Shown here: positions 24,025-51,536 of the stretch, piece by piece
How the letters are laid out: each line of letters opens with the position of its first letter
Position numbering within the stretch: position 1 is the stretch's first letter
IMG/VR virus record: IMGVR_UViG_3300045988_130225
Span: 1-64,000 of that record
Source: a virus
Strand: one strand, 5' to 3'
DNA: 64,000 nt
The notes under the pieces: model-generated
The model's database searches: none
What the model was told of the DNA's origin: nothing
What the model saw: only the letters and a program-made list of their open reading frames with translations
Made by a program: the position numbers and the translations under genes

Positions 24025-24741
24025 ATGAAATATGTAGGTTCTAAAGCAAGATTAGTAAAATATATTGCTCCGATTATTCAGTCTTATATTGACGAAAATA
24101 ATATAAAAAAATACTGGCAACCATTTGTAGGAGGGGCAAATCTTATAACGCATATTAAATGTAAAGAACGATTTGGTTCTGATATTAACCCATATTTTAT
24201 CGCACTTCTTAAACAAACGCAAATTGACGTTTCTATATTTCCTCAAACCGTTTCAGAAGCCGAGTACAAAGCAGTACAAACAAGTAAAAACGATTATCCA
24301 GACTGGTATGTGGGGATTGTTGGGTTTGGTTCATTTGGTGGTAAATTTTTTGGTGGATACCCAAGAGGATTTAAAAACGATGGTATAACACCAAGAGATT
24401 TATTTAATGAACATTACAGAGCATTAATAAAACAAGCACCTTTACTTAAAGATATTCATTTATCTTGTTGTGATTTTAGAGAAACTAAACCAATAGAAAA
24501 CTTTGTTATTTATTGTGACATACCTTATCAAAACACTACAAAATATTCTAATAAAGACCCTTTTCCTTATGACGAATTTTATAAATGGTGTTTGGAACAT
24601 GCTAAAAATAATATAGTTTTAGTTAGCGAGTATTCTATGCCTAAAGATTTTACATGTATTTGGGAAAAAGAAGTTAATACTATGTTAGATAGTAAAGGAA
24701 ACGGCAAACCCAGAACAGAGAAATTATTTATTGTAAAATAA
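24025..24741 (+). CDS. dam: Dam-family (D12 class) N6-adenine DNA methyltransferase
   Basis: N-terminal MKYVGSKARL and catalytic DIPY (a DPPY variant). Confidence 0.85.
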   Translation: MKYVGSKARLVKYIAPIIQSYIDENNIKKYWQPFVGGANLITHIKCKERFGSDINPYFIALLKQTQIDVSIFPQTVSEAEYKAVQTSKNDYPDWYVGIVGFGSFGGKFFGGYPRGFKNDGITPRDLFNEHYRALIKQAPLLKDIHLSCCDFRETKPIENFVIYCDIPYQNTTKYSNKDPFPYDEFYKWCLEHAKNNIVLVSEYSMPKDFTCIWEKEVNTMLDSKGNGKPRTEKLFIVK

Positions 24742-28134: not shown

Positions 28135-29055
28135 TTAATCTTCTTTATTAGTAAGTCCACTAAATTTAAGACTTCCATCATCACTTGCGCTAAATTTAAT
28201 ATTAACGTCTGATACCATAGCACCGTTTTCATCAAGATAATACCAACTACCATTATCTTCTAACAGTCCTTTTCTCATAGCACCAGTATCATCTAAATAA
28301 TACCATTTATCATGGTACTTATACCAAGTATTAGTTAAACATGCCCCTGCACCATCAAAATAATACCAATTATCTTTATATTCAAGCCACTGATTAGAAA
28401 TCATACCACCATCACCAGACAAATAGTACCACTTTCCATCTTCATAAAACCACTGACTTGTGATTAATTTCCCCTCACCGTCCATAACATACCAACGGTT
28501 ATTATCATTAACCCATGAGTTCACTACAATAATTCCATTTCTATAATATCTCCATGAGCCGTTTACCTTAAAGAAACCGTTTTTATATTCAGTAACGGTA
28601 TTATCATATATAATATCTTTAATCTTAAATGCTTTTTTCCATGGTGTCGAATTTAAGTTACTCTGGATAACCCCGTAATTGATACCTTTTGCTTCGATTA
28701 CATGGTTACGGTCAAGTACAATGCCGATATGACCTTGTTTCCACACTGCGTAACCCAGTTTATCATCTGTTAATTTAGACGGTGGGATTTTGCTGTTACC
28801 AGTCTGTTCAAACTGTCCAGAACCACGAATGATACCAGTATACCATGAAATTAGTCCAGAACAGTCAACAGCTTCTTCACCTACCCATTGTAAAGCCTTA
28901 TTAATATAAGCTTGTGTGTAAATATTTGGATATTGCCTAGCCCATGAATAAATCTTAGTCTTAGTAAGAATCTCACCTTTAGCACCATAAACATAATGAA
29001 CGCCTATTTTACTTTTGGCAAATTCCACTAAACCTTTTGCTGTTTTATTAGCCAT
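28135..29055 (-). CDS. Endolysin: NlpC/P60 endopeptidase plus CW_binding_1 (choline-binding-type) repeats
   Basis: Catalytic AVDCSGLISW and GHIGIV. The C-terminus carries repeated W(Y)YYxxxxGxMxxxxW units. Confidence 0.9.
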   Translation of the reverse strand: MANKTAKGLVEFAKSKIGVHYVYGAKGEILTKTKIYSWARQYPNIYTQAYINKALQWVGEEAVDCSGLISWYTGIIRGSGQFEQTGNSKIPPSKLTDDKLGYAVWKQGHIGIVLDRNHVIEAKGINYGVIQSNLNSTPWKKAFKIKDIIYDNTVTEYKNGFFKVNGSWRYYRNGIIVVNSWVNDNNRWYVMDGEGKLITSQWFYEDGKWYYLSGDGGMISNQWLEYKDNWYYFDGAGACLTNTWYKYHDKWYYLDDTGAMRKGLLEDNGSWYYLDENGAMVSDVNIKFSASDDGSLKFSGLTNKED

Positions 29056-30815: not shown

Positions 30816-30858
30816 TATAAATCTCCTTTCAAAAAATAGAATTAATATATGTAGGCAT

Positions 30859-30888
30859 GAAAAAAGAGAGGGCTAATAGTCCTCTCTA
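30859..30888 (-). terminator. Rho-independent terminator
   Basis: Minus strand has the AGAGAGG / CCTCTCT stem followed by TTTTT. Confidence 0.6.
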
Positions 30889-30898
30889 AAGTAAAATT

Positions 30899-30965
30899 TC
30901 CTCGCCAATTTCCTCTTTATCCAAAATCCTTATCCGAAGAACTAGACACATGAGTTACTGTAGCC
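30899..30965 (-). pseudogene. Decayed fragment of the 3' part of a 33519..34079-like gene
   Basis: 30899-30922 and 30945-30965 match 33621-33645 and 33655-33675 nearly base for base. The fragment's reading frame is broken by a ~13-nt internal duplication and a stop. Confidence 0.55.
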
Positions 30966-36820: not shown

Positions 36821-37552
36821 TTAGTTCACAATTCTAAACCATAAATCACCAGTTTCTTGTTGACTTGGCGTTCCCCCTTGTACTGGAATTTCTCTAGGTC
36901 TAACAGAACCAATATTAACCCAGTATTGCGAACCCTCAAAAGGTGCTTGGTTATTATTAGCTTCAATACAAGCCCACACATAGTTACCGTATGTTACTAC
37001 GTTCTGTGTGGTGTAATGTACTGTACTATCCCATTCTCCTAAGAAAGACAATCCCTCACCAGAATCACCTTTTTCACCACGAATAGAAAGCACTCGCCAA
37101 TAAGTTGTATTTGTGGGATCTGTTCCCAAAGGTGGATTAGTAACAGCAATATACACATAATTTACACCGTTATAGGTGTATGTTACAAAGTTATTCTTAG
37201 AATAGGTTATAGTAGGGTTATATATTCCCTTATAGCCAAATAAATTGATGATATTCTGCCATTTAATTTGCTTGCCCTCTACATAAGGTTGCACATCAGT
37301 TTTATAAAAATTTTCCAACGCTTCACAAGTATTGATAATCGTATTTAATTTTTGAGCATTGATAATCTTTTGATTACCGTTTGGAATTTGTGCAAATATA
37401 TTTTGTGCGGTTTCATAATCATTAGACTGAATAGCTGTCTGATATTGCTGAATTAATTGTGCGTCAGAAGCCGTAATATCCAAAAAAGTTGTAAATGTTT
37501 GTACTTGATTAGGAAAAGTCGTACTCGGAAATTGAGGGTAACGTTCACTCAT
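36821..37552 (-). CDS. Tail/baseplate protein with two CBM5/12-like repeats
   Basis: YSKNNFVTYTYNGVNYVYIAV...YW and WDSTVHYTTQNVVTYGNYVWACIEAN...YW. Confidence 0.65.
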   Translation of the reverse strand: MSERYPQFPSTTFPNQVQTFTTFLDITASDAQLIQQYQTAIQSNDYETAQNIFAQIPNGNQKIINAQKLNTIINTCEALENFYKTDVQPYVEGKQIKWQNIINLFGYKGIYNPTITYSKNNFVTYTYNGVNYVYIAVTNPPLGTDPTNTTYWRVLSIRGEKGDSGEGLSFLGEWDSTVHYTTQNVVTYGNYVWACIEANNNQAPFEGSQYWVNIGSVRPREIPVQGGTPSQQETGDLWFRIVN

Positions 37553-37586
37553 AAATCACACTTCCTTTCTATGTAATCTAAATATT

Positions 37587-42509: not shown

Positions 42510-45500
42510 TTAATCTCTCCTTCCACCCATCTGTAATGCTCTGTTTTTTAAATTCTTTAATTCGTCAATAAATGATTGTGCGTTGGTAACATTTGGTAAT
42601 GTAAGATTTTCAAAAGCGTAGTTATAAATAGGTGCAGACTGTCCACCCATTTTTCCTACAATACTGTTTAACCATTGTGTAGGTGAGAATTTACCAAGTT
42701 GCATAAGATTCTCAGTCAAATGATTAGGAATAATACCGTCACCCTCATTAGACCTTGAACCAAGAACTCTTAATTCTCGACCTTTTTCACCAACCATAGA
42801 TAAACCATAACCTTTTGTTGTACCGTTTGCATAAGCCCCCGGGCCATGTGAAGTATCATCTTCATACCAGTTATCACCACCAGACCCATGAGAATATTCA
42901 GGTTCTTTATCAGTCCAATGTTCTTCTGGGTCAAGTTCGTCACCAAATTCTTCATCATCATCATCATCGTAACTTTTATATCTTGTCTTAAGTGTACTCA
43001 TTATTTCATTATATCTATCTACATAATCTTGAAGATTACCAAGACGTTTCTCCCAGTTTTCACCCTCTAAACTAATGCCTAATACTTGTTCAGCAAGAAG
43101 TTTATTCTGTTCAGTTGTATAATTATCTGTAACATTTCCCCATTCATCTTTATACTTTTGCCAATACTTTATCTGTTCTTCAACTGAATTAATTGTAGCG
43201 TCACGAATATCTTCTAATCGTTTTATCTCTTTCTTGGTGTCTTGCTCTTTCTTATATTGTGTAAGAGCAGTTTTAGCTTCGTCTACAGCAGATTGGTCTG
43301 TTTCGTAAACAAAACCTTGTCCCTCTCTATATATTCTTACTTTCTTTTGTTGTGCTTTTGCTAAAGCATCTAACTTTTCTTGTAGTTCAATTTCGTCATT
43401 TGTTGCATCGTTCTTTTCGTTTATTTTGTCAATCTCAGCATCGTACTGGTCTTGAATAGCTTGTTTTCTTTCGTTAAGTGCATCAATTTCTTTTTGCGCT
43501 AATGAAGCAACATAACTAAACGCTGTTTCCAGATTAGATTGTTGTTCCTCATACCAAGCCTTTTCTTCCTCCCACTCTTCTTTACGTGCTTTCTTACGCT
43601 TTTCTGCTTCTTGCTCTGCTTTTCTTGTATTTTCTTCTTCAAGTTTATTACGTCCAGAATAAATCTCTTCTTCAATTTTCCAACGTTGCTCTGCGTATTT
43701 TTCTTCATTACTATAGAACTCTTTCATTAATTCTTCAAGTTCGTCATAGTATTCCTGTTCAGAAATCATATCCATAGCAAGTTGATGTTTTAAGAGGTTA
43801 TAACGCTCAGTATAAGCCGCATCATGGGCTTTTGTCATACCGTCTAAGGCTTTCTCATGATACTTGTTATATTCATCCTCATACCCCTCTTTATCTTTGT
43901 AGTATTTATTTGTAAGTTCTTCAAGCTGTTCATAATACCATTTATCTGTAGCGGCATTATCTTTCATTGAAGCCTTTTGTTTATCTAAAGTAGCAAGTTC
44001 TTTTTCAAATGCTTCTTTATATGCTTTAGCGTCTGCTTTTGCTTGTTTTTCTGCATCTGAGGTTGAGGATTTCTTAGAACCACCGCCACCTTTACCAGAT
44101 TTGCCACCAGATGTAGACGGTTTAAACTGTAATCCTTTTCTCAATTCCTCTAAAAGTTTTTGATTTTGTTGATTACGGTAAGCTTGAACTTGTGCGTCAA
44201 ATCCTTCTGAGTAAGATTGAACACCAACACCGCTACTGCCTGTTCTAGCTTTTGGTGCGGCACCAGATACAGCATCTAAACTAGAAGCAAATTGTAAAAT
44301 TCCTTGCGCTCCTTGTGCAAATTGGTTACCTGTTGTTATAGCCGTATTACCAATCGTTGTTAAATAAGGATTTGCTTGTGAACTTGCTGTTCCCACTTGT
44401 TGAATAGAAGTTCCTAAATTATCAGAACCTTGTTTCCCTATTTCTGCGTTTGTGCCAACTTTTTGCTCACTTTCACTAAAAGTATCTAATCCTTGTGAAC
44501 TAGAAATAGCAGAAATCCCACTTTCAGTAAAGCTTTGTGCCATTGACATTAAAGAAGCATCGTTAACAACTAATTGACCATTTACCATTTGTAAAGAATT
44601 AAGATATTCTGGGTTTAAAGATAATAAATCAGCCATTGTATCTATTGTAACACTACCAGTTTTATTGTATTCGTCTGCTACTTCATGTAAAGTATCATAA
44701 GCGTCTTGAACACCTTTTAATTCTGATGTAAGACTTTTAATAGCTTCTTCAAATTCTTCTGTTTGAGAAGCGGCTTCACCTGCATCTTCACCATATTGAT
44801 TTACGCCATCAGCGGCTTCTTTTGCTTTATCACCATTATCTTGTAATTCAATTCCTAATGCTTTTGCAAAATCTGGAAATTGCGTAGCAACAACTTCATC
44901 TAATGCTTCTTTAAATAACGGAATCTGCGAATTATTTTTAAGCAACGCATTGTATACACTTTCAAAAGAACTAAGACTATCATATTGAGTATTTATAAAA
45001 GATTGCGTCTTTTTATCAACATCAACCGTTGCATCAGCGGCTTCTCTTGTAAGTGTAGCAGTTTTATTATATTTATCCTCTAATTCAACAAGAGTATTAC
45101 TTAAGAACGCTAAAGTTTGCTGATGTAATTTTGTTTGATTATCTTCTTGTTGCATTGCGGTAATAGTAGTGTTTAAATCCGCTATTAATTCTTTATAACC
45201 ACCTGCCGCTTCATAAACGCCTTCACCCAAACTCTTTGTATATTTATTATAAAACGCCTTAAAAGATTCACTGGATTCAGTATCAGAGGTAAATTTCAAA
45301 GGAATATAAAACGAAGTTCTATTTAACATATCCTGTGTTGCTTTTTGCGCTTTCTGAATTTCAGCTTGATTTCTGTTCAAAAAATCTTGTGATTTTTCAG
45401 CATTTTCTTTACTAAGTAAATCTAAACCTTCTGCTCTTGTTCCGTTCAAATTTGATAGTGCTTCTTCTTCAACACCATAAGCCTTAGCAAGTTTGGAAAT

Positions 45501-47174
45501 TGTAGATTTCAATTTCTGCTTATCTTCATCTTCGTTGCTTGCGGCATCTTTAGCATTAATATATTCAAGTCTTAAATTATAAAGATTTTTTCTTTCATCT
45601 TCAAAACTACTACCTGCTTGTTCTGCGGCTCTTCTTGCGTTTTCTTGTTGAGTATTATAATAACCATAAGCGGCTACAAGTCCAGTAACAACAAGTGATA
45701 CTGCACCTAAACTTGCAGTTAATAAACTACCTGCACCTGCCATAGCCGTAAATCCTTGTGCTAAAGAACCTGTAGCGGCATAAGCATAATCAAATTTAGC
45801 AATCATGTCTAAAACATTTGTAGATATTTTTGCTATCATTTCTGGTACTTTATGTCCATTAAGAGTAATAAAAGCACCTGTAATAGCAGTAAGTACAGTG
45901 GGCATACCGCCTAAATCATTAATAAGTTTTAATACTTGCGTACCAAATTCTACAAGGCGTTTTACACTATCTGAAGAAATACCCTCAGTCCAAAACTTTT
46001 CTAATTCAGATGTGAACTGAGATACTTTACCTTGAATAGAATCAAGATAACGTGCGTTTTCTTTAAGTGCTGAACCTTGGGAGTCTAAAGCTATTTTATA
46101 AGCTTCTGTAGCCGAATTAAGGTTTAGCATAACCGAGTTAAATACAGAAAATTGGTTCTTACCTGCCAACGCCAAACCCAGTGATTGCTTTTCAGCTTGT
46201 GACATATCATCCCAACTGGATTTTAAATCTTGAAAAACTTGATATGTACTTTTCATTTCTCCTGTAGATTTATCAAATAAATCTATGGATTTTGTCACAC
46301 CTTGTACTTTAAAACTTAATTCACCTGCTTCATTAGCGGCTTTTGCTATATTGTTTCCTATTGTAGTTAATCCCCTTGCAACCTGTGCGCTTCTTCCTGT
46401 AAGTATTTCTGTACCTGAGGTGATTAACGCTATAGATTGCTCAAAATCGTTGCCTAATACGGAAAGACCTGCACCTGCTACAGTAAGACCTTTTGCTAAA
46501 TCATTAGTTCCAACAGCCATGTTATTAGCAACCTCATTAGTGACATCTATGATATGTTGAGCATCTTCCGCTGTCATATTAAATGCTTTCATCTGAGAGT
46601 TCACAAAACTTGCACTATCTCCTGCTGAAATTGCAGTATCCGCAATATTCTGGAACATAGTTGCTACTTTTCCTAATTGTAAACTTTCTTGGTCTGAATA
46701 ACCCATTTTCTTGAACTGAGTTCCTGCTTCTATAAATTCAGTAGCACTTTTTCCTACTTCAAGACCCATTTCTCTTGCTGTGCTTACAAAACTTTTCATT
46801 CCCTCGTCTGTTAAATCAGACACTTTCTTATATTCAGTAACAGCCGCATCTAATTCCCTAACAGCATCTACACCTTCCATTAACGATTGTCTTAACTCAT
46901 TAATAACAAGTGTTACACCACCAAACTTAGACACCTTAGTAAATATATCACCAATACTTTGAGAAGTTTTTTCTGCACTTGTAGATGTATCATCAAATCC
47001 AACTTTTAATCCTTTAAGTCCACTTAACGCATCGTTAAGTTTACTTGTATCAACATCAATGCCAACTTTCATAGTTGCATATTTTTGACTTATCTTATCT
47101 AATTGTGCTTGAATATTTTTTGCGTCCAATACTGCGTTTACAAGTATTTGAAAATCTCTACTATTCAATGCCAT
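42510..47174 (-). CDS. Tail tape measure protein
   Basis: 1554 aa with long coiled-coil K/E-rich stretches, hydrophobic segments and a GGKSGKGGGGSKK linker. Position fits the tail operon. Confidence 0.9.
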   Translation of the reverse strand: MALNSRDFQILVNAVLDAKNIQAQLDKISQKYATMKVGIDVDTSKLNDALSGLKGLKVGFDDTSTSAEKTSQSIGDIFTKVSKFGGVTLVINELRQSLMEGVDAVRELDAAVTEYKKVSDLTDEGMKSFVSTAREMGLEVGKSATEFIEAGTQFKKMGYSDQESLQLGKVATMFQNIADTAISAGDSASFVNSQMKAFNMTAEDAQHIIDVTNEVANNMAVGTNDLAKGLTVAGAGLSVLGNDFEQSIALITSGTEILTGRSAQVARGLTTIGNNIAKAANEAGELSFKVQGVTKSIDLFDKSTGEMKSTYQVFQDLKSSWDDMSQAEKQSLGLALAGKNQFSVFNSVMLNLNSATEAYKIALDSQGSALKENARYLDSIQGKVSQFTSELEKFWTEGISSDSVKRLVEFGTQVLKLINDLGGMPTVLTAITGAFITLNGHKVPEMIAKISTNVLDMIAKFDYAYAATGSLAQGFTAMAGAGSLLTASLGAVSLVVTGLVAAYGYYNTQQENARRAAEQAGSSFEDERKNLYNLRLEYINAKDAASNEDEDKQKLKSTISKLAKAYGVEEEALSNLNGTRAEGLDLLSKENAEKSQDFLNRNQAEIQKAQKATQDMLNRTSFYIPLKFTSDTESSESFKAFYNKYTKSLGEGVYEAAGGYKELIADLNTTITAMQQEDNQTKLHQQTLAFLSNTLVELEDKYNKTATLTREAADATVDVDKKTQSFINTQYDSLSSFESVYNALLKNNSQIPLFKEALDEVVATQFPDFAKALGIELQDNGDKAKEAADGVNQYGEDAGEAASQTEEFEEAIKSLTSELKGVQDAYDTLHEVADEYNKTGSVTIDTMADLLSLNPEYLNSLQMVNGQLVVNDASLMSMAQSFTESGISAISSSQGLDTFSESEQKVGTNAEIGKQGSDNLGTSIQQVGTASSQANPYLTTIGNTAITTGNQFAQGAQGILQFASSLDAVSGAAPKARTGSSGVGVQSYSEGFDAQVQAYRNQQNQKLLEELRKGLQFKPSTSGGKSGKGGGGSKKSSTSDAEKQAKADAKAYKEAFEKELATLDKQKASMKDNAATDKWYYEQLEELTNKYYKDKEGYEDEYNKYHEKALDGMTKAHDAAYTERYNLLKHQLAMDMISEQEYYDELEELMKEFYSNEEKYAEQRWKIEEEIYSGRNKLEEENTRKAEQEAEKRKKARKEEWEEEKAWYEEQQSNLETAFSYVASLAQKEIDALNERKQAIQDQYDAEIDKINEKNDATNDEIELQEKLDALAKAQQKKVRIYREGQGFVYETDQSAVDEAKTALTQYKKEQDTKKEIKRLEDIRDATINSVEEQIKYWQKYKDEWGNVTDNYTTEQNKLLAEQVLGISLEGENWEKRLGNLQDYVDRYNEIMSTLKTRYKSYDDDDDEEFGDELDPEEHWTDKEPEYSHGSGGDNWYEDDTSHGPGAYANGTTKGYGLSMVGEKGRELRVLGSRSNEGDGIIPNHLTENLMQLGKFSPTQWLNSIVGKMGGQSAPIYNYAFENLTLPNVTNAQSFIDELKNLKNRALQMGGRRD

Positions 47175-47177
47175 TAT

Positions 47178-47762
47178 TTACATGCACCTACCTTTCTTGG
47201 CGTTTATATTTGGCTTCTTACCAAATCCCTTACTTATTTCAGTAGGTTTAATCTGTGACCATGCTATTCCAATAGCATCTCCAATATCATCATCATTTTT
47301 CACGCTTTTAGGTTTATCTAAATCATAAAACAATTCCAACCCAAAAATATGATTGACTTTTTCTATAGTTTTCCATTTCATTACTGGGCGTTTAGTTCCA
47401 TCTCTAGTACCATCATAAACACCCAAATCACTACGCCATTTACTAGGCATAAGAAATTCTATTTTTACATTATGTACTGCACAAACACCTAATACAATTC
47501 CTTGTAACACTGATAATTGTTTTACTGTTTGTACATTATTACCACATTCACCACTTAAAATTGTATCTTCACAATAAATAAAAAATGGGGAATAAGTGTC
47601 CAATAGCGTGGATAACTCATTCCCCATATATATACAACGTTCTCTCCAAGCTATCTCTTGCTTCTGTTTCCAAACGCCAAATTTAATCAATTTACCATTT
47701 TTAAAAACTGAATATCCAGAACTTTTCGTTGACATATCCAGTCCAATTACAACATTTTCCAT
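47178..47762 (-). CDS. RuvC-like Holliday-junction resolvase
   Basis: VIGLDMSTKSSGYSVF (Asp 1), YCEDT (Glu) and DDDIGDAIGIAWS (Asp 3/4). Confidence 0.8.
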   Translation of the reverse strand: MENVVIGLDMSTKSSGYSVFKNGKLIKFGVWKQKQEIAWRERCIYMGNELSTLLDTYSPFFIYCEDTILSGECGNNVQTVKQLSVLQGIVLGVCAVHNVKIEFLMPSKWRSDLGVYDGTRDGTKRPVMKWKTIEKVNHIFGLELFYDLDKPKSVKNDDDIGDAIGIAWSQIKPTEISKGFGKKPNINAKKGRCM

Positions 47763-47782: not shown

Positions 47783-48292
47783 TTACCAGAAAGAGGATAT
47801 ATTTTTGCCTCTTCCTACACTTCTACACTGTATTCCTTGTTTTTGCATACCCTCAATGAACCATTTCTTTAATTCGCCTTTGTTCAACTGTTCAATTAGT
47901 GGTGTCCAAGCATCTCTTGGTTTGCACCACCAACCGTATCCAAACAAATCACCACCAAGACCTTGATATATAATTCCAGTTAATTCATCTCTTACATCAC
48001 CATAAGTAGTATATAAACTACCATGCTGAAACATTTCTGGATTATAAGACATAAAAGTAGGGTCTTGAGATAAAATCCCAGACCCACCTTTGCTTGTTTT
48101 TTGTGAATTTGTTTGCCAACTTTCCAGAAACTCATATGTTCTTTCATACTCTTCTGGCATATGTGTATATACAATCTGATTGATTAATTCTTTGTATTTT
48201 ATAATCATTTGTTGCATTACATATTCAACAGCTTTAAAAACTGGTTCATTGTACAAGGAATAAAACTCAGCTACATTTTTAGCATAAGCCAT
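47783..48292 (-). CDS. Hypothetical protein (169 aa)
   Basis: ORF in the tail operon. Confidence 0.6.
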   Translation of the reverse strand: MAYAKNVAEFYSLYNEPVFKAVEYVMQQMIIKYKELINQIVYTHMPEEYERTYEFLESWQTNSQKTSKGGSGILSQDPTFMSYNPEMFQHGSLYTTYGDVRDELTGIIYQGLGGDLFGYGWWCKPRDAWTPLIEQLNKGELKKWFIEGMQKQGIQCRSVGRGKNISSFW

Positions 48293-48301
48293 TTTACTTT
48301 A

Positions 48302-48751
48302 TCACTTCTTTCCAAACGCTTCAACCAACTTTTTACTGTCTGCTAACATATCCTCAATCTGCTTATTATTAGGCATTTTCTTAGCATATTTATCTAAAGT
48401 CTTATTCAACTGTTCTAAAAATTTATTTACATTAGTTCTGATTGATAATTCATCTTCTACATAATCGTCAATTTCACTAACGTTAAACACATCAAAATTC
48501 ACAGTTTCAATAATTCCAGATTTAACAAGCATATCATAATCTTTAGCAATTTCCTCTGGAATATCAGTCATTAACTTAACAAGCATTGTATTTTTAATAA
48601 CATTTCTCTCAACAGCATTTGAACACTTTAACATATTATTTCCAATAAGTTCAACCTGTTCTGGTGTTAAATAGTGTTTTACTGTATATTTTTCACCTTT
48701 TTTGTCCTCGGTATAAGGAATTGTTATCACTTTTTCTTCTAAATTAATCAT
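48302..48751 (-). CDS. Hypothetical acidic protein (149 aa), tail-assembly chaperone candidate by position only
   Basis: Start moved to the ATG at 48751 (MINLEEK...), which follows GAAAGGAA. Confidence 0.45.
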   Translation of the reverse strand: MINLEEKVITIPYTEDKKGEKYTVKHYLTPEQVELIGNNMLKCSNAVERNVIKNTMLVKLMTDIPEEIAKDYDMLVKSGIIETVNFDVFNVSEIDDYVEDELSIRTNVNKFLEQLNKTLDKYAKKMPNNKQIEDMLADSKKLVEAFGKK

Positions 48752-48878
48752 TTTATTCCATTCCTTTCGTTTTATTCCATAATCTATGTACAAGGGTGTA
48801 ACGAAACGTGACACCCTTTCAAAAAGTTTACCCTACCAATTTATCATACAATCCATTCAAGCCAATGTCGCCCTATTT

Positions 48879-49148
48879 TTACTTATCAGTAACCACTTTC
48901 TTTGCAACTTGGTCTACCCATGTAGAAGCCATTCCAGACACAATACCAATAGCAACAGCCGTCATAATATCGTCAGCAGGAAAATCAACCATATATCTAT
49001 AACCTAAAACACCTGCAATTCCACCAATCAATCCAACAATCGGCAAAATTTTATTATTATCTAACTTAGTATAATTTTTAACAAACTGTCCTGCAAGATA
49101 AGCAATAACTACAATTACAGGTACACTTACAATTCCGAAATCTGGCAT
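48879..49148 (-). CDS. Holin-like three-TM protein (89 aa)
   Basis: Three hydrophobic segments and a charged C-terminus (QVAKKVVTDK). The layout recalls Hol118-type class I holins (recalled from memory). Confidence 0.5.
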   Translation of the reverse strand: MPDFGIVSVPVIVVIAYLAGQFVKNYTKLDNNKILPIVGLIGGIAGVLGYRYMVDFPADDIMTAVAIGIVSGMASTWVDQVAKKVVTDK

Positions 49149-49163
49149 AATATCAAGTCCTTT

Positions 49164-49544
49164 CTATTTGAATCCGTATTTAGTTGCTAATATATATCCT
49201 ACAAAAGATATTGCAATAATTATTGTGGGAAAATTTTTCTTTATGTATTCCATAATATTAAAATTGGATTCTTCTTTAATTTTATTAAAATCCGTTTTAA
49301 TATCGTTTACTTGAAGTTTAACGTCTGAAACGTCACTTTGTAAAGAAATCATTGTAATTTTAATATCTTGAATAGTTTCATTTAAAGCAGTATTAGTTTT
49401 TACAACTTGTTCTGATAATTGCTGAATAAATTTATGACTTTCTTGAAGTCTGGTAATATCTTGTGTATGTTCATCTACTTTTAACTTAACTTCTCTTAAA
49501 TCCTCTTTAATTTCATGTGCTGTCATATCTTCCACAAATCTCAC
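49164..49544 (-). CDS. Coiled-coil protein with a C-terminal membrane anchor (126 aa)
   Basis: Heptad-like N-terminal 95 aa followed by FPTIIIAISFVGYILATKYGF. Confidence 0.6.
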   Translation of the reverse strand: MRFVEDMTAHEIKEDLREVKLKVDEHTQDITRLQESHKFIQQLSEQVVKTNTALNETIQDIKITMISLQSDVSDVKLQVNDIKTDFNKIKEESNFNIMEYIKKNFPTIIIAISFVGYILATKYGFK

Positions 49545-49602: not shown

Positions 49603-49977
49603 TTAATCACCACAAAGGTTAGCAAATACAATACCAGTAATTGCTCTCAAATCAGCCTTATTCAAAGTTCCAATATAGTTCTTAAACCTTGACTTATCCA
49701 CAGCACGAATTTGTTCAGCACAAGCAACGCTATCATCTACAAGAAATTTATTTTTTTCTTTAGATAATGTATAGTGTGTAAGCAAATCTTCTCTTTTAAC
49801 TTTAGAAGTTAAAGGTACTATGATTATGGTAGGGCTATAAAAATTTCCAGTATCATTCTGTAAAATTAATACTGGTCTTACTCCGCCTTGTTCTGAACCT
49901 TGGGTATTCCTTAAATCAGCATAATAAACTTCCCCTCTTTTGAATGTTCTTGCGTTATTGTTTATTGTTGTAAACAT
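49603..49977 (-). CDS. mazF: MazF/PemK (EndoA-like) endoribonuclease toxin
   Basis: RGEVYYADL....GSEQGGVRPVLILQND.GN..SPT.I.VPLTS closely parallels Bacillus EndoA/NdoA. Confidence 0.9.
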   Translation of the reverse strand: MFTTINNNARTFKRGEVYYADLRNTQGSEQGGVRPVLILQNDTGNFYSPTIIIVPLTSKVKREDLLTHYTLSKEKNKFLVDDSVACAEQIRAVDKSRFKNYIGTLNKADLRAITGIVFANLCGD

Positions 49978-50025
49978 ATTCAGTTCTCCTTATGTACTAT
50001 ATTTTTATATAACTTTCATATAATA

Positions 50026-50054
50026 TATATAGCACTTTTTATTTACAAAGTCAA
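50026..50054 (-). promoter_or_regulatory. Sigma-A-type promoter, extended -10, dedicated to mazF
   Basis: Minus strand reads TTGACT (50049-50054), 17-nt spacer, TATATA (50026-50031) with TGC upstream. Confidence 0.7.
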
Positions 50055-50059
50055 TACTT

Positions 50060-50407
50060 TTATTTACCATAACCCTTATTTTTATTAATACCATACCCAT
50101 TTTTTGTCTTATATAAAGTAACATATTTAGGTACAAAATTAAAAGGATTTTTCAATGTAATCACCATATTGTTCTCAACTTCAATATACAATTCGCCTTT
50201 CTTTTCAAAACGAACCCTTGAAGCCTTTTCTGGAACAATATATTCACTTTTTAACCTACAAGTATCTTGACTTGGTAATGGTTTCCAACAATCTGATATA
50301 TTGCACCAACGAACAAAAGGACAAATATTACCATTTTGTCTTTTACATAAAACCCTATTTCTATTATCTATTTTGCCAATATATGAATCTGGACACAAAA
50401 TAATCAC
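50060..50407 (-). CDS. Cys-rich hypothetical protein (~112-115 aa; start uncertain, GTG at 50407 or TTG at 50398)
   Basis: Six Cys in the N-terminal 50 aa (CPDS...CKRQNGNICPFVRWCNISDC...C) and a beta-rich C-terminal half. Confidence 0.6.
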   Translation of the reverse strand: MIILCPDSYIGKIDNRNRVLCKRQNGNICPFVRWCNISDCWKPLPSQDTCRLKSEYIVPEKASRVRFEKKGELYIEVENNMVITLKNPFNFVPKYVTLYKTKNGYGINKNKGYGK

Positions 50408-50426: not shown

Positions 50427-50465
50427 AAAATATGTAAAATGCGTAGAGCATATCACCCTACGCAT
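50427..50465 (-). terminator. Rho-independent terminator after the major tail protein gene
   Basis: Minus strand has the ATGCGTAG / CTACGCAT stem (50439-50446 / 50458-50465) followed by a T-rich tail. Confidence 0.7.
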
Positions 50466-50489: not shown

Positions 50490-51536
50490 TTAACCGACAG
50501 TTACGTTAGCATAGCCTTCAACTGCTTGATTCTTAGTAAGAACAGCGTGGATAGTGGTTGTACCAGTTGCTACGCCCTCTACCTCACCAGTTGCGTCATC
50601 TACTTTAGCTGTACCAACAGCACCACTTGTAAAAGTAACAGCAGTTGGGTCTACTAACTTAGGCAGAGCATTTCTGATAAGAGCATAAACCTTAATGGTT
50701 TCTTTCTCAGCTACTTGTAAATCAATATCAGCCGGAGTTAAAGCTAATGCGTAAGCATCATTTTCCCACTGAGCAGTGGACAGAATTTCCTTAATAGTAC
50801 CATAAATAGCTTCGTCACTACAACTAGAGGTTTCAGCAGAAGCCAGAGCAGAACCATTAAGAGGTGTGTTAGCCGCACCAGTCATACTCATAGAAATCTC
50901 CTGTGAACCGTTTAACATTAAACGTGGAATATCAATCTGAACCTCACCGACCTTAGTAGTAGAAGCTTCATTTGGATTAGTGCTACTACCTGCAAACAAA
51001 GTACCAGTCATTACAGCATGTACAGTAGCAGGAATAAAGTTAGCACCTACTGTAAGCACTCTCATGGAATCATTGTTTACTATATACTTAACGCAATAAA
51101 CATCACCAGACATAGCACCTGCGACAGTGATAATCTTGTTGTTGAAAGTACCCTTAGTCCATGTAGAATCATTAGGTTTCTTATACCAACCAATAGTACC
51201 AAAATTACCAAATGCTACAGGAATACCTGCTACAGTAATCTGTCCTGCATCTGTTACAGTAACTTCCTCAACAGTTAAAGCACTGCCACCAATCGCAATA
51301 TCAGAACCAATGTTCTTTGCGATAAATTCAAGACGGAACATTACATCAGTAAGAGTTACGTCCATTGTGGAAGAATGTGCGTATTTACCATACAGTTTTG
51401 CACCTTGTCCACCACGAATATCTTCAAGAGATACATCAAAACTAAAAGTAGAATCTGTTAAAGTTTTTGCAGTAGCAAACAGTTCATCACCTACAAAAAG
51501 GTCAACATTTGCTACACCGGCTAAAAAAGCATCCAT
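50490..51536 (-). CDS. Major tail protein with a C-terminal Ig-like (Big_2-type) domain
   Basis: 348 aa, richer in G+C than its neighbours. The C-terminus reads VTFTSGAVGTAKVD..G.V.GVATGTTTIHAVL. A terminator follows directly. Confidence 0.65.
   Translation of the reverse strand: MDAFLAGVANVDLFVGDELFATAKTLTDSTFSFDVSLEDIRGGQGAKLYGKYAHSSTMDVTLTDVMFRLEFIAKNIGSDIAIGGSALTVEEVTVTDAGQITVAGIPVAFGNFGTIGWYKKPNDSTWTKGTFNNKIITVAGAMSGDVYCVKYIVNNDSMRVLTVGANFIPATVHAVMTGTLFAGSSTNPNEASTTKVGEVQIDIPRLMLNGSQEISMSMTGAANTPLNGSALASAETSSCSDEAIYGTIKEILSTAQWENDAYALALTPADIDLQVAEKETIKVYALIRNALPKLVDPTAVTFTSGAVGTAKVDDATGEVEGVATGTTTIHAVLTKNQAVEGYANVTVG

What the first reader, a model, noticed from the sequence alone, without database searches (positions are those of the whole stretch)
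49603..50054. EndoA-like MazF toxin with its own strong promoter and no recognisable MazE/RHH/AbrB antitoxin
The 124-aa product matches the MazF/PemK core almost motif for motif (GEVYYADL, GSEQGGVRPVLILQND, VPLTS).

Canonical mazEF loci have a small antitoxin gene immediately upstream and co-transcribed. Here the 82-nt upstream gap instead holds a consensus promoter (TTGACT, 17-nt spacer, TGC-TATATA) with no small ORF. The nearest upstream gene encodes a 115-aa Cys-rich protein of a different type.

Either the toxin is deployed unneutralised (host shut-off), or one of the neighbours (Cys-rich protein or coiled-coil membrane protein) is a non-canonical antitoxin.
Basis: partly seen in the sequence, partly recalled or inferred. 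Interest (0 to 1): 0.65.

Follow-up and report, generated by a model that had tools for sequence, protein, structure and literature searches.

The report
Antitoxin-less phage MazF RNA cutter
A gut-bacterium phage carries a working copy of the bacterial "toxin" RNA-cutting enzyme MazF with no antidote gene, and conserved copies of the enzyme's likely cut site at gene boundaries suggest the phage may use it to process its own messages.

Summary
Window 49603-49977 (- strand) encodes an intact EndoA-type MazF (Pfam 2.4e-28; catalytic residues conserved; dN/dS 0.05-0.28). An 82-nt gap upstream holds a host-type promoter. It is not a consensus by scan, but it is conserved in position across diverged relatives. 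No antitoxin is detectable.

The window is a ~100-kb phage related to the lytic Enterocloster phage PMBT24. Both proposed neighbour antitoxins are unlikely, because both persist in a relative that has lost mazF. A better candidate partner, ORF52 (a new zinc-ribbon protein), sits directly upstream of mazF only in the sister clade and is a pseudogene in one mazF-intact lineage. Lacking a MazE is also common in cells: 41 of 71 Clostridia homologues have no small upstream ORF.

The new finding concerns UACAUA, the hexamer cut by B. subtilis-type MazFs. It is conserved abutting the mazF ribosome-binding site and at the foot of hairpins after the tail-tube and holin genes. In mazF-bearing relatives it occurs 24 times in 6.4 kb of intergenic sequence against 18 times in 125 kb of coding sequence. 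The one mazF-less relative has none in 20 kb.

Best reading: an unneutralised, self-limiting phage RNA endonuclease like T4 RegB. Activity and specificity are untested.

The parts
49603..49977 (-). mazF: 124-aa EndoA-type MazF/PemK endoribonuclease gene
   Evidence: Pfam PF02452 E 2.4e-28. PDB S. aureus MazF 1.6e-26. Catalytic R34 and T57 conserved. dN/dS 0.05-0.28.
50026..50054 (-). Host (sigma-A) type promoter: -35 TTGACT (50054-50049), 17-nt spacer ending in TGC, -10 TATATA (50031-50026)
   Evidence: Read from the sequence. Not listed by the consensus scan. Conserved in position in 7 lineages and invariant at -35/TG in 11 close relatives. PhagePromoter score 1.000 for the PMBT24 counterpart (PMC11035940 Table S3).
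49991..49996 (-). UACAUA hexamer in the mazF leader, abutting the Shine-Dalgarno AGGAG (49990-49986): candidate MazF self-cleavage site
   Evidence: The only word shared by the mazF leaders of four diverged lineages, also present in L027, L040, L132 and L133. At codons 2-3 in L131. Base rate of TACAT in leaders is 4 of 76 genes. Leader unstructured.
50431..50465 (-). Hairpin (50465-50439) after the tail-tube gene, followed by UACAUA (50436-50431), in the leader of the Cys-rich gene
   Evidence: Fold -17.1 kcal/mol, z -4.65. Hairpin plus TACATA at this position in 8 of 10 mazF-bearing lineages; hairpin without the hexamer in mazF-less L045.
48785..48818 (-). Hairpin (48818-48792) after the holin gene, followed by UACAUA (48790-48785)
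   Evidence: Fold -15.7 kcal/mol, z -2.2. Present in 11 of 11 mazF-bearing lineages and absent from L045.
50060..50407 (-). Cys-rich 115-aa protein gene (clade-restricted, function unknown); upstream neighbour, unlikely to be a dedicated antitoxin
   Evidence: Only 12 clusters in 5.8 billion proteins. Retained without mazF in L045. AF2 pLDDT 70 with no PDB match better than E 0.6. 3-nt junction with mazF in L028/L029.
49164..49544 (-). Coiled-coil protein with C-terminal TM segment; probable lysis-cassette partner of the holin, not an antitoxin
   Evidence: Always directly upstream of the holin, also in mazF-less L045. Only coiled-coil noise in Pfam.
48879..49148 (-). Hol44-family holin
   Evidence: Pfam PF16079 E 1.2e-14; phrog_1129 holin.
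50490..51536 (-). Tail-tube (major tail) protein with Big_2 domain; upstream boundary of the block
   Evidence: Big_2. Homologues carry YomU_Tube. Annotated as major tail protein in PMBT24.

Best explanation
SHOWN:
- The gene encodes an intact EndoA-type MazF endoribonuclease under purifying selection.
- It has been inherited vertically at this locus in a clade of ~100-kb siphophages with SPbeta-like tails, related to the lytic Enterocloster phage PMBT24.
- In the window's lineage it stands alone behind a conserved host-type promoter, with no adjacent or detectable antitoxin.

INFERRED:
- Host RNA polymerase transcribes it from that promoter, and free MazF dimers cut single-stranded RNA at U^ACAUA, the strict site of its B. 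subtilis, Listeria and S. aureus homologues.
- Its preferred substrates include the phage's own late transcripts at three conserved positions in the window. Two lie at the 3' foot of stable hairpins, after the tail-tube gene and after the holin gene. One abuts its own Shine-Dalgarno sequence.
- Cutting at the hairpin feet would divide the long late transcript into units. The upstream fragment would end in a protective hairpin and the downstream fragment would start with a 5'-OH end.
- Cutting its own leader would cap MazF synthesis. That would make a protein antitoxin unnecessary in a cell the phage will lyse anyway.
- Host mRNAs carrying UACAUA would be cut collaterally.

The logic is that of T4 RegB: a phage nuclease with a toxin fold, its own promoter, a self-site in its ribosome-binding region, and no known antitoxin.
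For: Family, residues and selection:
-.

Vertical inheritance and locus history:
- Tail-tube and MazF trees are congruent, and mazF is present in both sister clades and in the outgroup.
- No prophage or close cellular copy exists in 185,000 species genomes.

No antitoxin found:
- tblastn with MazE, PemI and ORF52.
- Pfam scan of 42 small ORFs.
- MazE-helix mimic motif.
- Rfam and tandem repeats.
- The 43-aa ORF is not conserved.

A partner is dispensable:
- ORF52 is a pseudogene next to an intact mazF in L132.
- Solo mazF is stable to dS above 1 in the window's clade.

Promoter:
- Conservation.

Site identity:
- U^ACAUA for the Bs, Lm and Sa MazFs (bioRxiv 10.64898/2026.08.06.743204).

Site placement:
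- TACATA is the only word shared by the mazF leaders.
- Hairpin plus UACAUA modules have different stems but an invariant hexamer.
- In mazF-bearing relatives, sense sites number 24 intergenic against 18 coding; the reverse complement numbers 3 against 66 (Fisher 4e-10).
- Mazf-less L045 has 0 sense sites in 20.3 kb yet keeps both hairpins.
- Cellular mazF leaders are enriched for UACAUA (11 of 71 against 20 of 363 control genes, P 0.009).

Precedent:
- RegB (PMC3014915).
Against: - Activity and UACAUA specificity are extrapolated from homologues only 40-48% identical.
- The link between the sites and mazF presence rests on a single mazF-less lineage, and the lineages counted are related, so the Fisher P overstates independence.
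- The window phage's tail and baseplate genes carry a normal density of sense UACAUA (9 observed, 8.9 expected). Free MazF would also cut inside essential late mRNAs, which argues for low or late expression or an unseen neutraliser.
- UACAUA avoidance elsewhere in the clade does not track the phage's mazF (L045 0 against 6.6; PMBT24 10 against 33), so host MazF could be the enzyme acting on these sites.
- The hairpin plus hexamer could be another signal, such as a terminator tail or a recognition element for the phage RNA polymerase or sigma factor.
- About 35-40 kb of this phage's genome lies outside the window.
- Pfam recognised only 4 of 25 MazE-sized ORFs in the positive control, so profile negativity is weak evidence.
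Confidence: 0.45

Rival explanations
1. Pure host shut-off weapon. MazF is made unneutralised simply to destroy host mRNAs and free ribosomes and nucleotides. The conserved UACAUA sites in the phage are incidental, or serve host-MazF sensing.
For: Own host-type promoter and no antitoxin. PMBT24, a lytic relative, has purged sense UACAUA from coding regions (10 against 33 expected; the top strand-specific avoided hexamer apart from one overlapping a restriction site), which would make its messages resistant. The window's replication block is depleted (1 against 6.7, P 0.003).
Against: Avoidance is equally strong in the mazF-less L045 (0 against 6.6) and absent from the window's structural genes (6 against 4.2; L027 6 against 3.0), so it does not track the phage's mazF. 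A 6-nt-specific EndoA-type MazF is described as a narrow, non-lethal regulator, not a global shut-off enzyme. This reading does not explain the invariant hexamer at hairpin feet.
Confidence: 0.2
2. The toxin is neutralised after all by a partner not recognisable here: the upstream Cys-rich protein acting as a non-canonical antitoxin, a phage inhibitor encoded in the ~35-40 kb outside the window, or the host's own MazE by cross-neutralisation.
For: The Cys-rich gene lies upstream of mazF in every lineage and abuts it in L028/L029 (TAG tcc ATG, with an SD-like GGTGGA inside its 3' end). SPbeta-family phage phi3T makes non-canonical MazF inhibitors, AimX and YosL (PMC10769878). Cross-neutralisation between non-cognate MazEFs is reported in the title of PMC10893535. 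Antitoxins are hard to detect (4 of 25 in the control). Normal UACAUA density in late genes would be safer with a neutraliser.
Against: The Cys-rich gene is kept in mazF-less L045. In most lineages it is separated from mazF by a promoter, by ORF52, or by 240-aa or 187-aa ORFs. Its model has no MazE/AbrB-like fold. No MazE-helix mimic motif occurs in any window ORF of 20 aa or more. No ORF52 homologue was found in near-complete IMG/VR contigs of the window's sub-clade. No antitoxin is annotated among PMBT24's 173 CDS.
Confidence: 0.2
3. An inter-phage or anti-defence accessory gene. The cassette is a moron that harms competing phages or host defence transcripts containing UACAUA, or manipulates the host MazEF switch as SPbeta-like phages do, without acting on the phage's own RNA.
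For: Cassette behaviour: the promoter, optional ORF52 and mazF are gained or lost as a unit (absent from L045). The slot content is variable. SPbeta-family phages activate, repress and sense host MazF.
Against: mazF is old and vertically inherited here, not sporadic. No direct evidence exists for any target. This reading does not explain the position-specific hexamers.
Confidence: 0.1
4. The downstream coiled-coil/TM protein is the antitoxin, in a reversed gene order.
For: It lies 58 nt downstream with no terminator between the genes.
Against: It is present in mazF-less L045 and always directly precedes the holin by 15-50 nt in every lineage. It has a membrane anchor. This is typical of a lysis accessory protein, although an XhlA assignment was not obtained.
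Confidence: 0.03

Closest known systems
B. subtilis EndoA (MazF/NdoA) and S. aureus MazF of the type II mazEF system
   Same: Same protein family and sub-type (40-48% identity). All catalytic and RNA-contacting residues named in the literature are conserved, so it probably has the same U^ACAUA specificity.
   Different: It is phage-borne, has no mazE, and is not next to alr or the rsb genes. It has its own promoter inside a late structural/lysis region. Candidate target sites are conserved in the carrier's own genome.
Bacteriophage T4 RegB endoribonuclease
   Same: A phage-encoded sequence-specific endoribonuclease with a TA-toxin fold and its own host-type promoter. It cleaves its own transcript at the ribosome-binding region to limit its synthesis, targets phage mRNAs at intergenic or SD positions, and has no known antitoxin (PMC3014915).
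   Different: RegB has a RelE/YoeB-like fold, cuts GGAG with ribosomal protein S1's help, and is an early gene that inactivates early mRNAs. Here the fold is MazF, the site would be UACAUA at hairpin feet, and the gene lies among late genes.
SPbeta/phi3T arbitrium-MazEF network (AimX, YosL, phi3T_93)
   Same: Phages with SPbeta-type structural genes whose biology is tied to the activity of a UACAUA-specific MazF. That network includes non-canonical phage proteins that bind MazF (PMC10769878).
   Different: Those temperate phages manipulate the host's MazF and encode inhibitors. This clade, lytic in PMBT24, encodes the MazF itself. No AimX/YosL-like helix motif was found.
Solo 'MazF-like growth inhibitor' genes of other phages (PHROG 1936; e.g. 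Psychrobacillus phage Perkons, Lactobacillus phage P1, Faecalibacterium phage Lagaffe) and PMBT24 ORF53 'mRNA interferase'
   Same: Phage MazF homologues without an annotated or Pfam-detectable antitoxin. PMBT24 ORF53 is the orthologue at 53% identity. Perkons also has UACAUA in its mazF leader.
   Different: None has been functionally studied in the literature I could search. Most lie in replication or early modules, not beside the lysis genes.
T7 RNase III processing sites (from general knowledge, not checked here)
   Same: Hairpin-associated cleavage sites between genes of a long phage transcript, leaving upstream fragments with a stabilising 3' hairpin.
   Different: T7 uses the host's double-strand-specific RNase III and cuts within the hairpin. 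Here the proposed enzyme is phage-encoded, single-strand specific, and would cut just 3' of the stem.

Membership tests
MazF/PemK endoribonuclease family (Pfam PF02452) | Significant profile match over the whole domain | tested here: met
   E 2.4e-28, 99 bits against a cut-off of 23.1, residues 13-113 on profile positions 1-101 of 109. phrog_1936 at 1.3e-28.
MazF/PemK endoribonuclease family (Pfam PF02452) | Catalytic Arg and Thr (Bs R25, T48) and the GSEQGG loop | tested here: met
   R34, T57 and G27-S-E-Q-G-G32 are conserved. Across the clade R34 is invariant and position 57 is Thr or Ser.
MazF/PemK endoribonuclease family (Pfam PF02452) | Sequence-specific cleavage of single-stranded RNA leaving 5'-OH ends | not testable with these tools
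   Needs an enzyme assay. UACAUA specificity is inferred from homologues.
EndoA-type (UACAUA-class) MazF sub-family | Closest solved or characterised relatives are the Bs, Sa and Ba enzymes, and the residues contacting UACAU are conserved (G18, P26, N36, R85) | tested here: met
   PDB ranking. Residues listed in PMC8634880 are invariant in alignment A1.
Type II mazEF toxin-antitoxin system | Small antitoxin gene immediately upstream of, or overlapping, the toxin gene and co-transcribed with it | tested here: not met
   The 82-nt gap holds a promoter, and its only ORF is not conserved. Note that 41 of 71 cellular homologues also fail this test.
Type II mazEF toxin-antitoxin system | A recognisable antitoxin fold or family (MazE/AbrB, RHH, Phd, HicB-like) somewhere in the element | tested here: inconclusive
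   None was found in the 64-kb window. However, the Pfam control detected only 4 of 25 MazE-sized ORFs, and about 35-40 kb of the genome is outside the window.
Type III (RNA antitoxin) system | Tandem repeat array or structured RNA adjacent to the toxin gene | tested here: not met
   No Rfam hit at E 1 or below. Only weak coding repeats. Leader unstructured.
RegB-like phage regulatory endoribonuclease (functional class, not homology) | Phage-encoded, own promoter, no antitoxin, and the enzyme's cognate site in its own translation-initiation region | tested here: met
   Promoter and UACAUA abutting the SD are conserved across lineages. This is sequence evidence only; cleavage was not shown.
RegB-like phage regulatory endoribonuclease (functional class, not homology) | Demonstrated cleavage of phage mRNAs at defined intergenic sites | not testable with these tools
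   Only positional conservation of hairpin-UACAUA modules is available.
XhlA-type holin-associated protein (for the coiled-coil/TM neighbour) | Match to the XhlA family profile | tested here: not met
   No XhlA hit at E 0.1 or below for the window protein or three homologues. Architecture and position beside the holin are the only resemblance.

The most novel reading that the evidence does not exclude
The phage-encoded MazF and the hairpin-UACAUA elements form a self-contained, co-inherited RNA-punctuation system. The enzyme excises the lysis-proximal block (Cys-rich gene, mazF, coiled-coil gene, holin) from the long late transcript, sets the relative stability of the tail-tube, lysis and tape-measure messages, and throttles itself at its own ribosome-binding site. 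A bacterial 'toxin' would thus have been domesticated as a viral mRNA-processing enzyme. In the sister clade the new zinc-ribbon protein ORF52 would act as its timer or antagonist.
Probability: 0.25. Interest if true: 0.85.

Novelty: new variant of a known kind. Interest (0 to 1): 0.6.

Why it matters
MazF is a widely studied toxin whose physiological role remains debated. Solo MazF-like genes are common in phage genomes (100 records in one phage database), but I found no functional study of them.

If this phage uses a hexamer-specific MazF to process its own transcripts and limit itself without an antitoxin, several things would follow:
- A long-standing annotation, 'MazF-like growth inhibitor', would gain a concrete and testable function.
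- The T4 RegB idea would extend to a second toxin fold and to Gram-positive gut phages.
- There would be a natural example of a toxin turned into a viral RNA-processing enzyme.

PMBT24 and its Enterocloster bolteae host can be grown in culture, so the prediction can be tested directly: 5'-OH ends at three or four named positions that depend on the phage's mazF. ORF52 would also be a candidate for a new class of MazF partner.

Tried and rejected
1. **Antitoxin searches.** All were negative:
   - tblastn of E. coli MazE, PemI, S. aureus MazE (sequences recalled from memory) and PMBT24 ORF52 against the window.
   - Pfam scan of 42 small window ORFs.
   - Regex for the MazE/AbrB-independent MazE/AimX/YosL helix motif in all ORFs of 20 aa or more.
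   - Rfam and tandem-repeat searches for RNA antitoxins.
   - The positive control shows Pfam is insensitive for this purpose (4 of 25).
2. **The 43-aa ORF overlapping the gap.** Rejected, because it is interrupted in L027.
3. **Self-protection by site avoidance.** Pentamer UACAU 69 against 79.5 expected; hexamer 14 against 20.4; no depletion in the window's late genes. Rejected as an explanation for how the window phage tolerates MazF.
4. **Avoidance as evidence for the phage's own MazF.** Rejected, because mazF-less L045 avoids UACAUA completely.
5. **Cys-rich protein as a structural antitoxin analogue.** AF2 pLDDT 70 and no PDB match better than E 0.6, with only faint OB or cold-shock-like resemblances.
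6. **ORF52 fold.** A confident model (pLDDT 82) with no PDB match, so its role stays inferential.
7. **'ORF52 was lost in the window lineage'.** Not the most parsimonious reading, because the outgroup has mazF without ORF52. ORF52 decay does occur, however (L132).
8. **Prophage or host copy of this mazF.** None in 185,000 species genomes.
9. **XhlA assignment for the coiled-coil/TM protein.** No profile support.
10. **TACATA as a promoter -10 element.** Disfavoured. In the mazF leaders a transcription start placed by it would fall within or after the SD, and L045 expresses the same late genes without the hexamer (inference).
Full report
**1. What is there**

The window is a phage. All genes around the finding lie on the minus strand, in this order:

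| Coordinates | Gene |
|---|---|
| 50490-51536 | Tail-tube/major tail protein with a Big_2 domain |
| 50060-50407 | 115-aa Cys-rich protein |
| 49603-49977 | The 124-aa ORF in question |
| 49164-49544 | 126-aa coiled-coil protein with a C-terminal membrane segment |
| 48879-49148 | Hol44 holin |
| 47783-48814 | Two ~170-aa ORFs |
| 47178-47762 | RuvC-like resolvase |
| 42510-47174 | 1554-aa tape measure protein |

- The plus-strand block at 0.3-22 kb is replication (SSB, RecJ, Pol III alpha, RecD-like helicase, NrdD).
- The endolysin (NlpC/P60 plus choline-binding repeats) lies about 20 kb away at 28135-29055.
- The 124-aa protein is an unambiguous MazF/PemK (Pfam E 2.4e-28; phrog_1936).
- Its best solved relatives are the S. 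aureus, B. anthracis and B. subtilis EndoA-type enzymes.
- All residues reported as catalytic or specificity-relevant are conserved.

**2. The relatives**

- There is no nucleotide-level match in the phage database.
- The locus is syntenic with the ~100-kb Enterocloster bolteae phages PMBT24 and CB457/CB473.
- PMBT24 is described as virulent, pac-type and siphoviral, and encodes a sigma factor. Its authors annotated the orthologue (ORF53) as 'mRNA interferase' without comment (PMC11035940).
- Its annotation also lists an 'RNA-dependent RNA polymerase', which I take to be a YonO-type phage polymerase. No antitoxin appears among its 173 CDS.
- Homologues of the tail genes carry the SPbeta YomU, YomW and YomX families.
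- From IMG/VR, Logan, ENA and NCBI assemblies I collected about a dozen distinct lineages of this clade.

**3. Anatomy of the slot across lineages**

| Lineage | Between the Cys-rich gene and mazF |
|---|---|
| Window, L027, L131 | ~82 nt holding a promoter |
| L028, L029 | 3 nt (TAG tcc ATG), no promoter |
| PMBT24/CB457, L040-42/CB473, L034/L046, L036, L133 | Promoter, then an ORF52-family gene (148-160 aa); L133 has an extra 187-aa ORF |
| L132 | Promoter, then an ORF52 pseudogene (in-frame TAG and loss of the zinc-ribbon half); mazF intact |
| L030 (outgroup) | A 240-aa ORF |
| L032/L033/L045 | No promoter, no ORF52 and no mazF; the Cys-rich, coiled-coil and holin genes are retained |

- Tail-tube and MazF trees are congruent.
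- The window's sub-clade (mazF only) is sister to the ORF52 clade. L045 nests inside the ORF52 clade, and L030 is the outgroup.
- mazF is therefore an old, vertically inherited resident of this locus.
- ORF52 is either a later addition in one clade or was lost in the window's clade. L132 shows that it can decay while mazF stays intact.
- The solo mazF is under purifying selection (dN/dS 0.05-0.28 at dS up to above 1), like its neighbours.
- No prophage or close cellular copy exists in 185,000 species genomes.

**4. The promoter**

- By a simple consensus scan the element is unremarkable. It is not listed, and hits in the region equal chance.
- However, TTGACT/TTGACA, then 17 nt, then a TG-extended TAnnnT box follows the Cys-rich gene's stop codon directly in seven lineages. 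These span both sister clades.
- In PMBT24 the element scored 1.000 in the authors' PhagePromoter table.
- It is missing where the cassette is missing (L045).
- The gap evolves 2-4 times more slowly than synonymous sites.
- I accept it as a real host-type promoter. 'Consensus' overstates the window's -10 (TATATA; most relatives have TATATT).

**5. Is there an antitoxin?**

- Nothing was found in the window by BLAST, Pfam, a MazE-helix motif, Rfam or repeat searches. The one ORF in the gap is not conserved.
- Two caveats came from controls:
  - Pfam recognised only 4 of 25 MazE-sized ORFs upstream of cellular homologues.
  - Among those 71 cellular loci only 21 have an abutting small ORF. 41 have none within 150 nt, 14 follow alanine racemase directly, and 7 follow a Na/Ca exchanger.
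- A 2026 preprint also notes Bacillota with mazF and no upstream antitoxin. It describes the hexamer-specific enzyme as a non-lethal, narrow regulator.
- Unrelated phages carry solo MazF-like genes as well.
- So the missing MazE is real but not exceptional for this sub-family.

- **Coiled-coil/TM protein.** It is part of the holin neighbourhood in every lineage, including the mazF-less one.
- **Cys-rich protein.** It belongs to a family of only 12 clusters in 5.8 billion proteins. It also persists without mazF, is usually separated from mazF by a promoter or other ORFs, and has no antitoxin-like fold. Its 3-nt junction with mazF in L028/L029 keeps a small probability alive.

ORF52:
- It is the better partner candidate where it exists. 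It is always directly upstream of mazF and evolves faster than the toxin.
- Its model is confident (pLDDT 82): a three-helix bundle, a zinc ribbon and a conserved C-terminal helix. It has no PDB match.
- It is absent from the window and from near-complete contigs of the window's sub-clade.

**6. The cleavage-site evidence**

B. subtilis, Listeria and S. aureus MazFs cut the strict hexamer U^ACAUA.

*Site avoidance as self-protection.* The window as a whole is barely depleted (14 against 20.4 expected). Its tail genes are not depleted (9 against 8.9), though its replication block is (1 against 6.7, P 0.003).
- PMBT24 is strongly depleted on the sense strand only (10 against 33). TACATA ranks second of 1420 strand-specific hexamers, behind one that overlaps a restriction site.
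- The mazF-less L045 is equally depleted (0 against 6.6).
- Avoidance therefore does not track the phage's mazF. It more likely reflects host MazF pressure that differs between hosts.

*Site placement.* This is the unexpected result.
- TACATA is the only word shared by the mazF leaders of four diverged lineages. It lies 0-5 nt upstream of the Shine-Dalgarno sequence and is also present in L027, L040/L132 and L133.
- In L131 it has moved to codons 2-3.
- The base rate of TACAT in 35-nt leaders is 4 of 76 window genes, and two of the four are mazF and the Cys-rich gene.
- Stable hairpins directly after the tail-tube gene and after the holin gene are each followed within 0-4 nt by UACAUA. The stem sequences differ between lineages, but the hexamer does not.
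- The post-holin module is present in 11 of 11 mazF-bearing lineages. The post-tail-tube module is present in 8 of 10.
- The sister clade has a fourth module after the tape-measure gene.
- L045 keeps both hairpins but has no sense UACAUA anywhere in 20.3 kb.

| Structural modules of mazF-bearing lineages | Intergenic (6.4 kb) | Coding (125 kb) |
|---|---|---|
| Sense UACAUA | 24 | 18 |
| Reverse complement | 3 | 66 |

- Fisher's test gives 4e-10. The lineages are related, so this is not an independent-sample probability.
- Cellular mazF genes are also enriched for UACAUA within 60 nt upstream (11 of 71 against 20 of 363 control genes, P 0.009).
- The unrelated phage Perkons has the hexamer in its mazF leader too.

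**7. Interpretation**

*Shown:*
- A functional-looking, selected, vertically inherited EndoA-type MazF gene without a dedicated antitoxin in this lineage.
- A conserved host-type promoter.
- Conserved UACAUA hexamers at its own ribosome-binding region and at hairpin feet flanking the block.

*Inferred:*
- The enzyme is active and UACAUA-specific.
- It is made in free form.
- It cuts the phage's own late transcripts at these positions and its own leader, and cuts host messages collaterally.

*Precedent:* T4 RegB is the close functional parallel. It is a phage nuclease with a toxin fold and an early promoter. It cleaves its own SD, and the T4 review argues it may need no antitoxin.

*Main weaknesses:*
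- Only one mazF-less lineage supports the co-variation.
- Specificity is extrapolated from homologues.
- The window's late coding regions have normal site density.
- Host MazF may be the acting enzyme.
- Part of the genome is unseen.

**8. Novelty**

- The gene family, solo MazFs, and phage MazF-like genes as an annotation category are all known.
- I found no functional study of a phage-encoded MazF in the searchable literature.
- The comparative anatomy of the cassette, the ORF52 family, and above all the conserved hairpin-UACAUA sites that co-occur with the phage's mazF appear to be new.
- I class it as a new variant of a known kind.

Noticed in passing
window, whole (coding strands); e.g. 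GATC-containing hexamers, CTGAAG, GAATTC, AGTACT, CAATTG, TCATGA, TCCTGA/TCAGGA: Several restriction-type sites are almost absent on both strands relative to synonymous shuffles: GATC words 0-1 against 15-21 expected, CTGAAG 1 against 25.8, GAATTC 0 against 15.7, AGTACT 0 against 17.5, CAATTG 1 against 21.7, TCATGA 1 against 16.1. PMBT24 shows the same pattern. This suggests heavy restriction pressure on an unmodified genome.
   Followed up: partly
window 24025-24741 (+): A D12-class N6-adenine DNA methyltransferase gene is present, even though GATC is almost absent from the genome.
   Followed up: no
window 28135-29055 (-): The endolysin (NlpC/P60 plus choline-binding repeats) lies about 20 kb from the holin at 48879-49148, as in PMBT24. 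The choline-binding repeats hint at a host with choline-decorated wall polymers.
   Followed up: no
window 47178-47762 (-), site at 47471-47476: A RuvC-like resolvase gene sits between tail-chaperone-like genes and the tape measure. A sense UACAUA inside it (codons V-H-N) is conserved in the window, L131, L046 and L133 although synonymous alternatives exist.
   Followed up: partly
PMBT24 (L043/L044) whole genome; L045: There is strong strand-specific avoidance of UACAUA in coding regions of PMBT24 (10 against 33; structural 2 against 14, replication 1 against 10.4, but 6 against 5.5 in the 84-100 kb block) and of mazF-less L045 (0 against 6.6). This looks like the footprint of host MazF as an anti-phage pressure.
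   Followed up: yes
L132:8186-8587: ORF52 is a pseudogene (in-frame TAG after about 28 codons, and the zinc-ribbon half deleted) behind an intact TTGACA-N17-TGATATAAT promoter and upstream of an intact mazF.
   Followed up: yes
L051-L130 (cellular Clostridia mazF loci): Over half of the EndoA-type mazF genes in Clostridia genomes have no MazE-sized ORF upstream: 14 follow alanine racemase directly and 7 follow a Na/Ca exchanger. UACAUA is enriched in their 60-nt upstream regions (15.5% against 5.5%).
   Followed up: partly
window 30830-30900 (-) and 37565-37575 (-): Two further intergenic sense UACAUA sites. One lies 11 nt after a terminator-like hairpin upstream of the 553-aa gene. The other directly abuts the SD of the 243-aa gene at 36821-37552.
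   Followed up: partly
L030:5457-6179 and L133:8894-9457: Other cargo occupies the same slot between the Cys-rich gene and mazF: a 240-aa Thr/Ser-rich repeat protein in the outgroup and a 187-aa protein in L133. Their functions are unknown.
   Followed up: no
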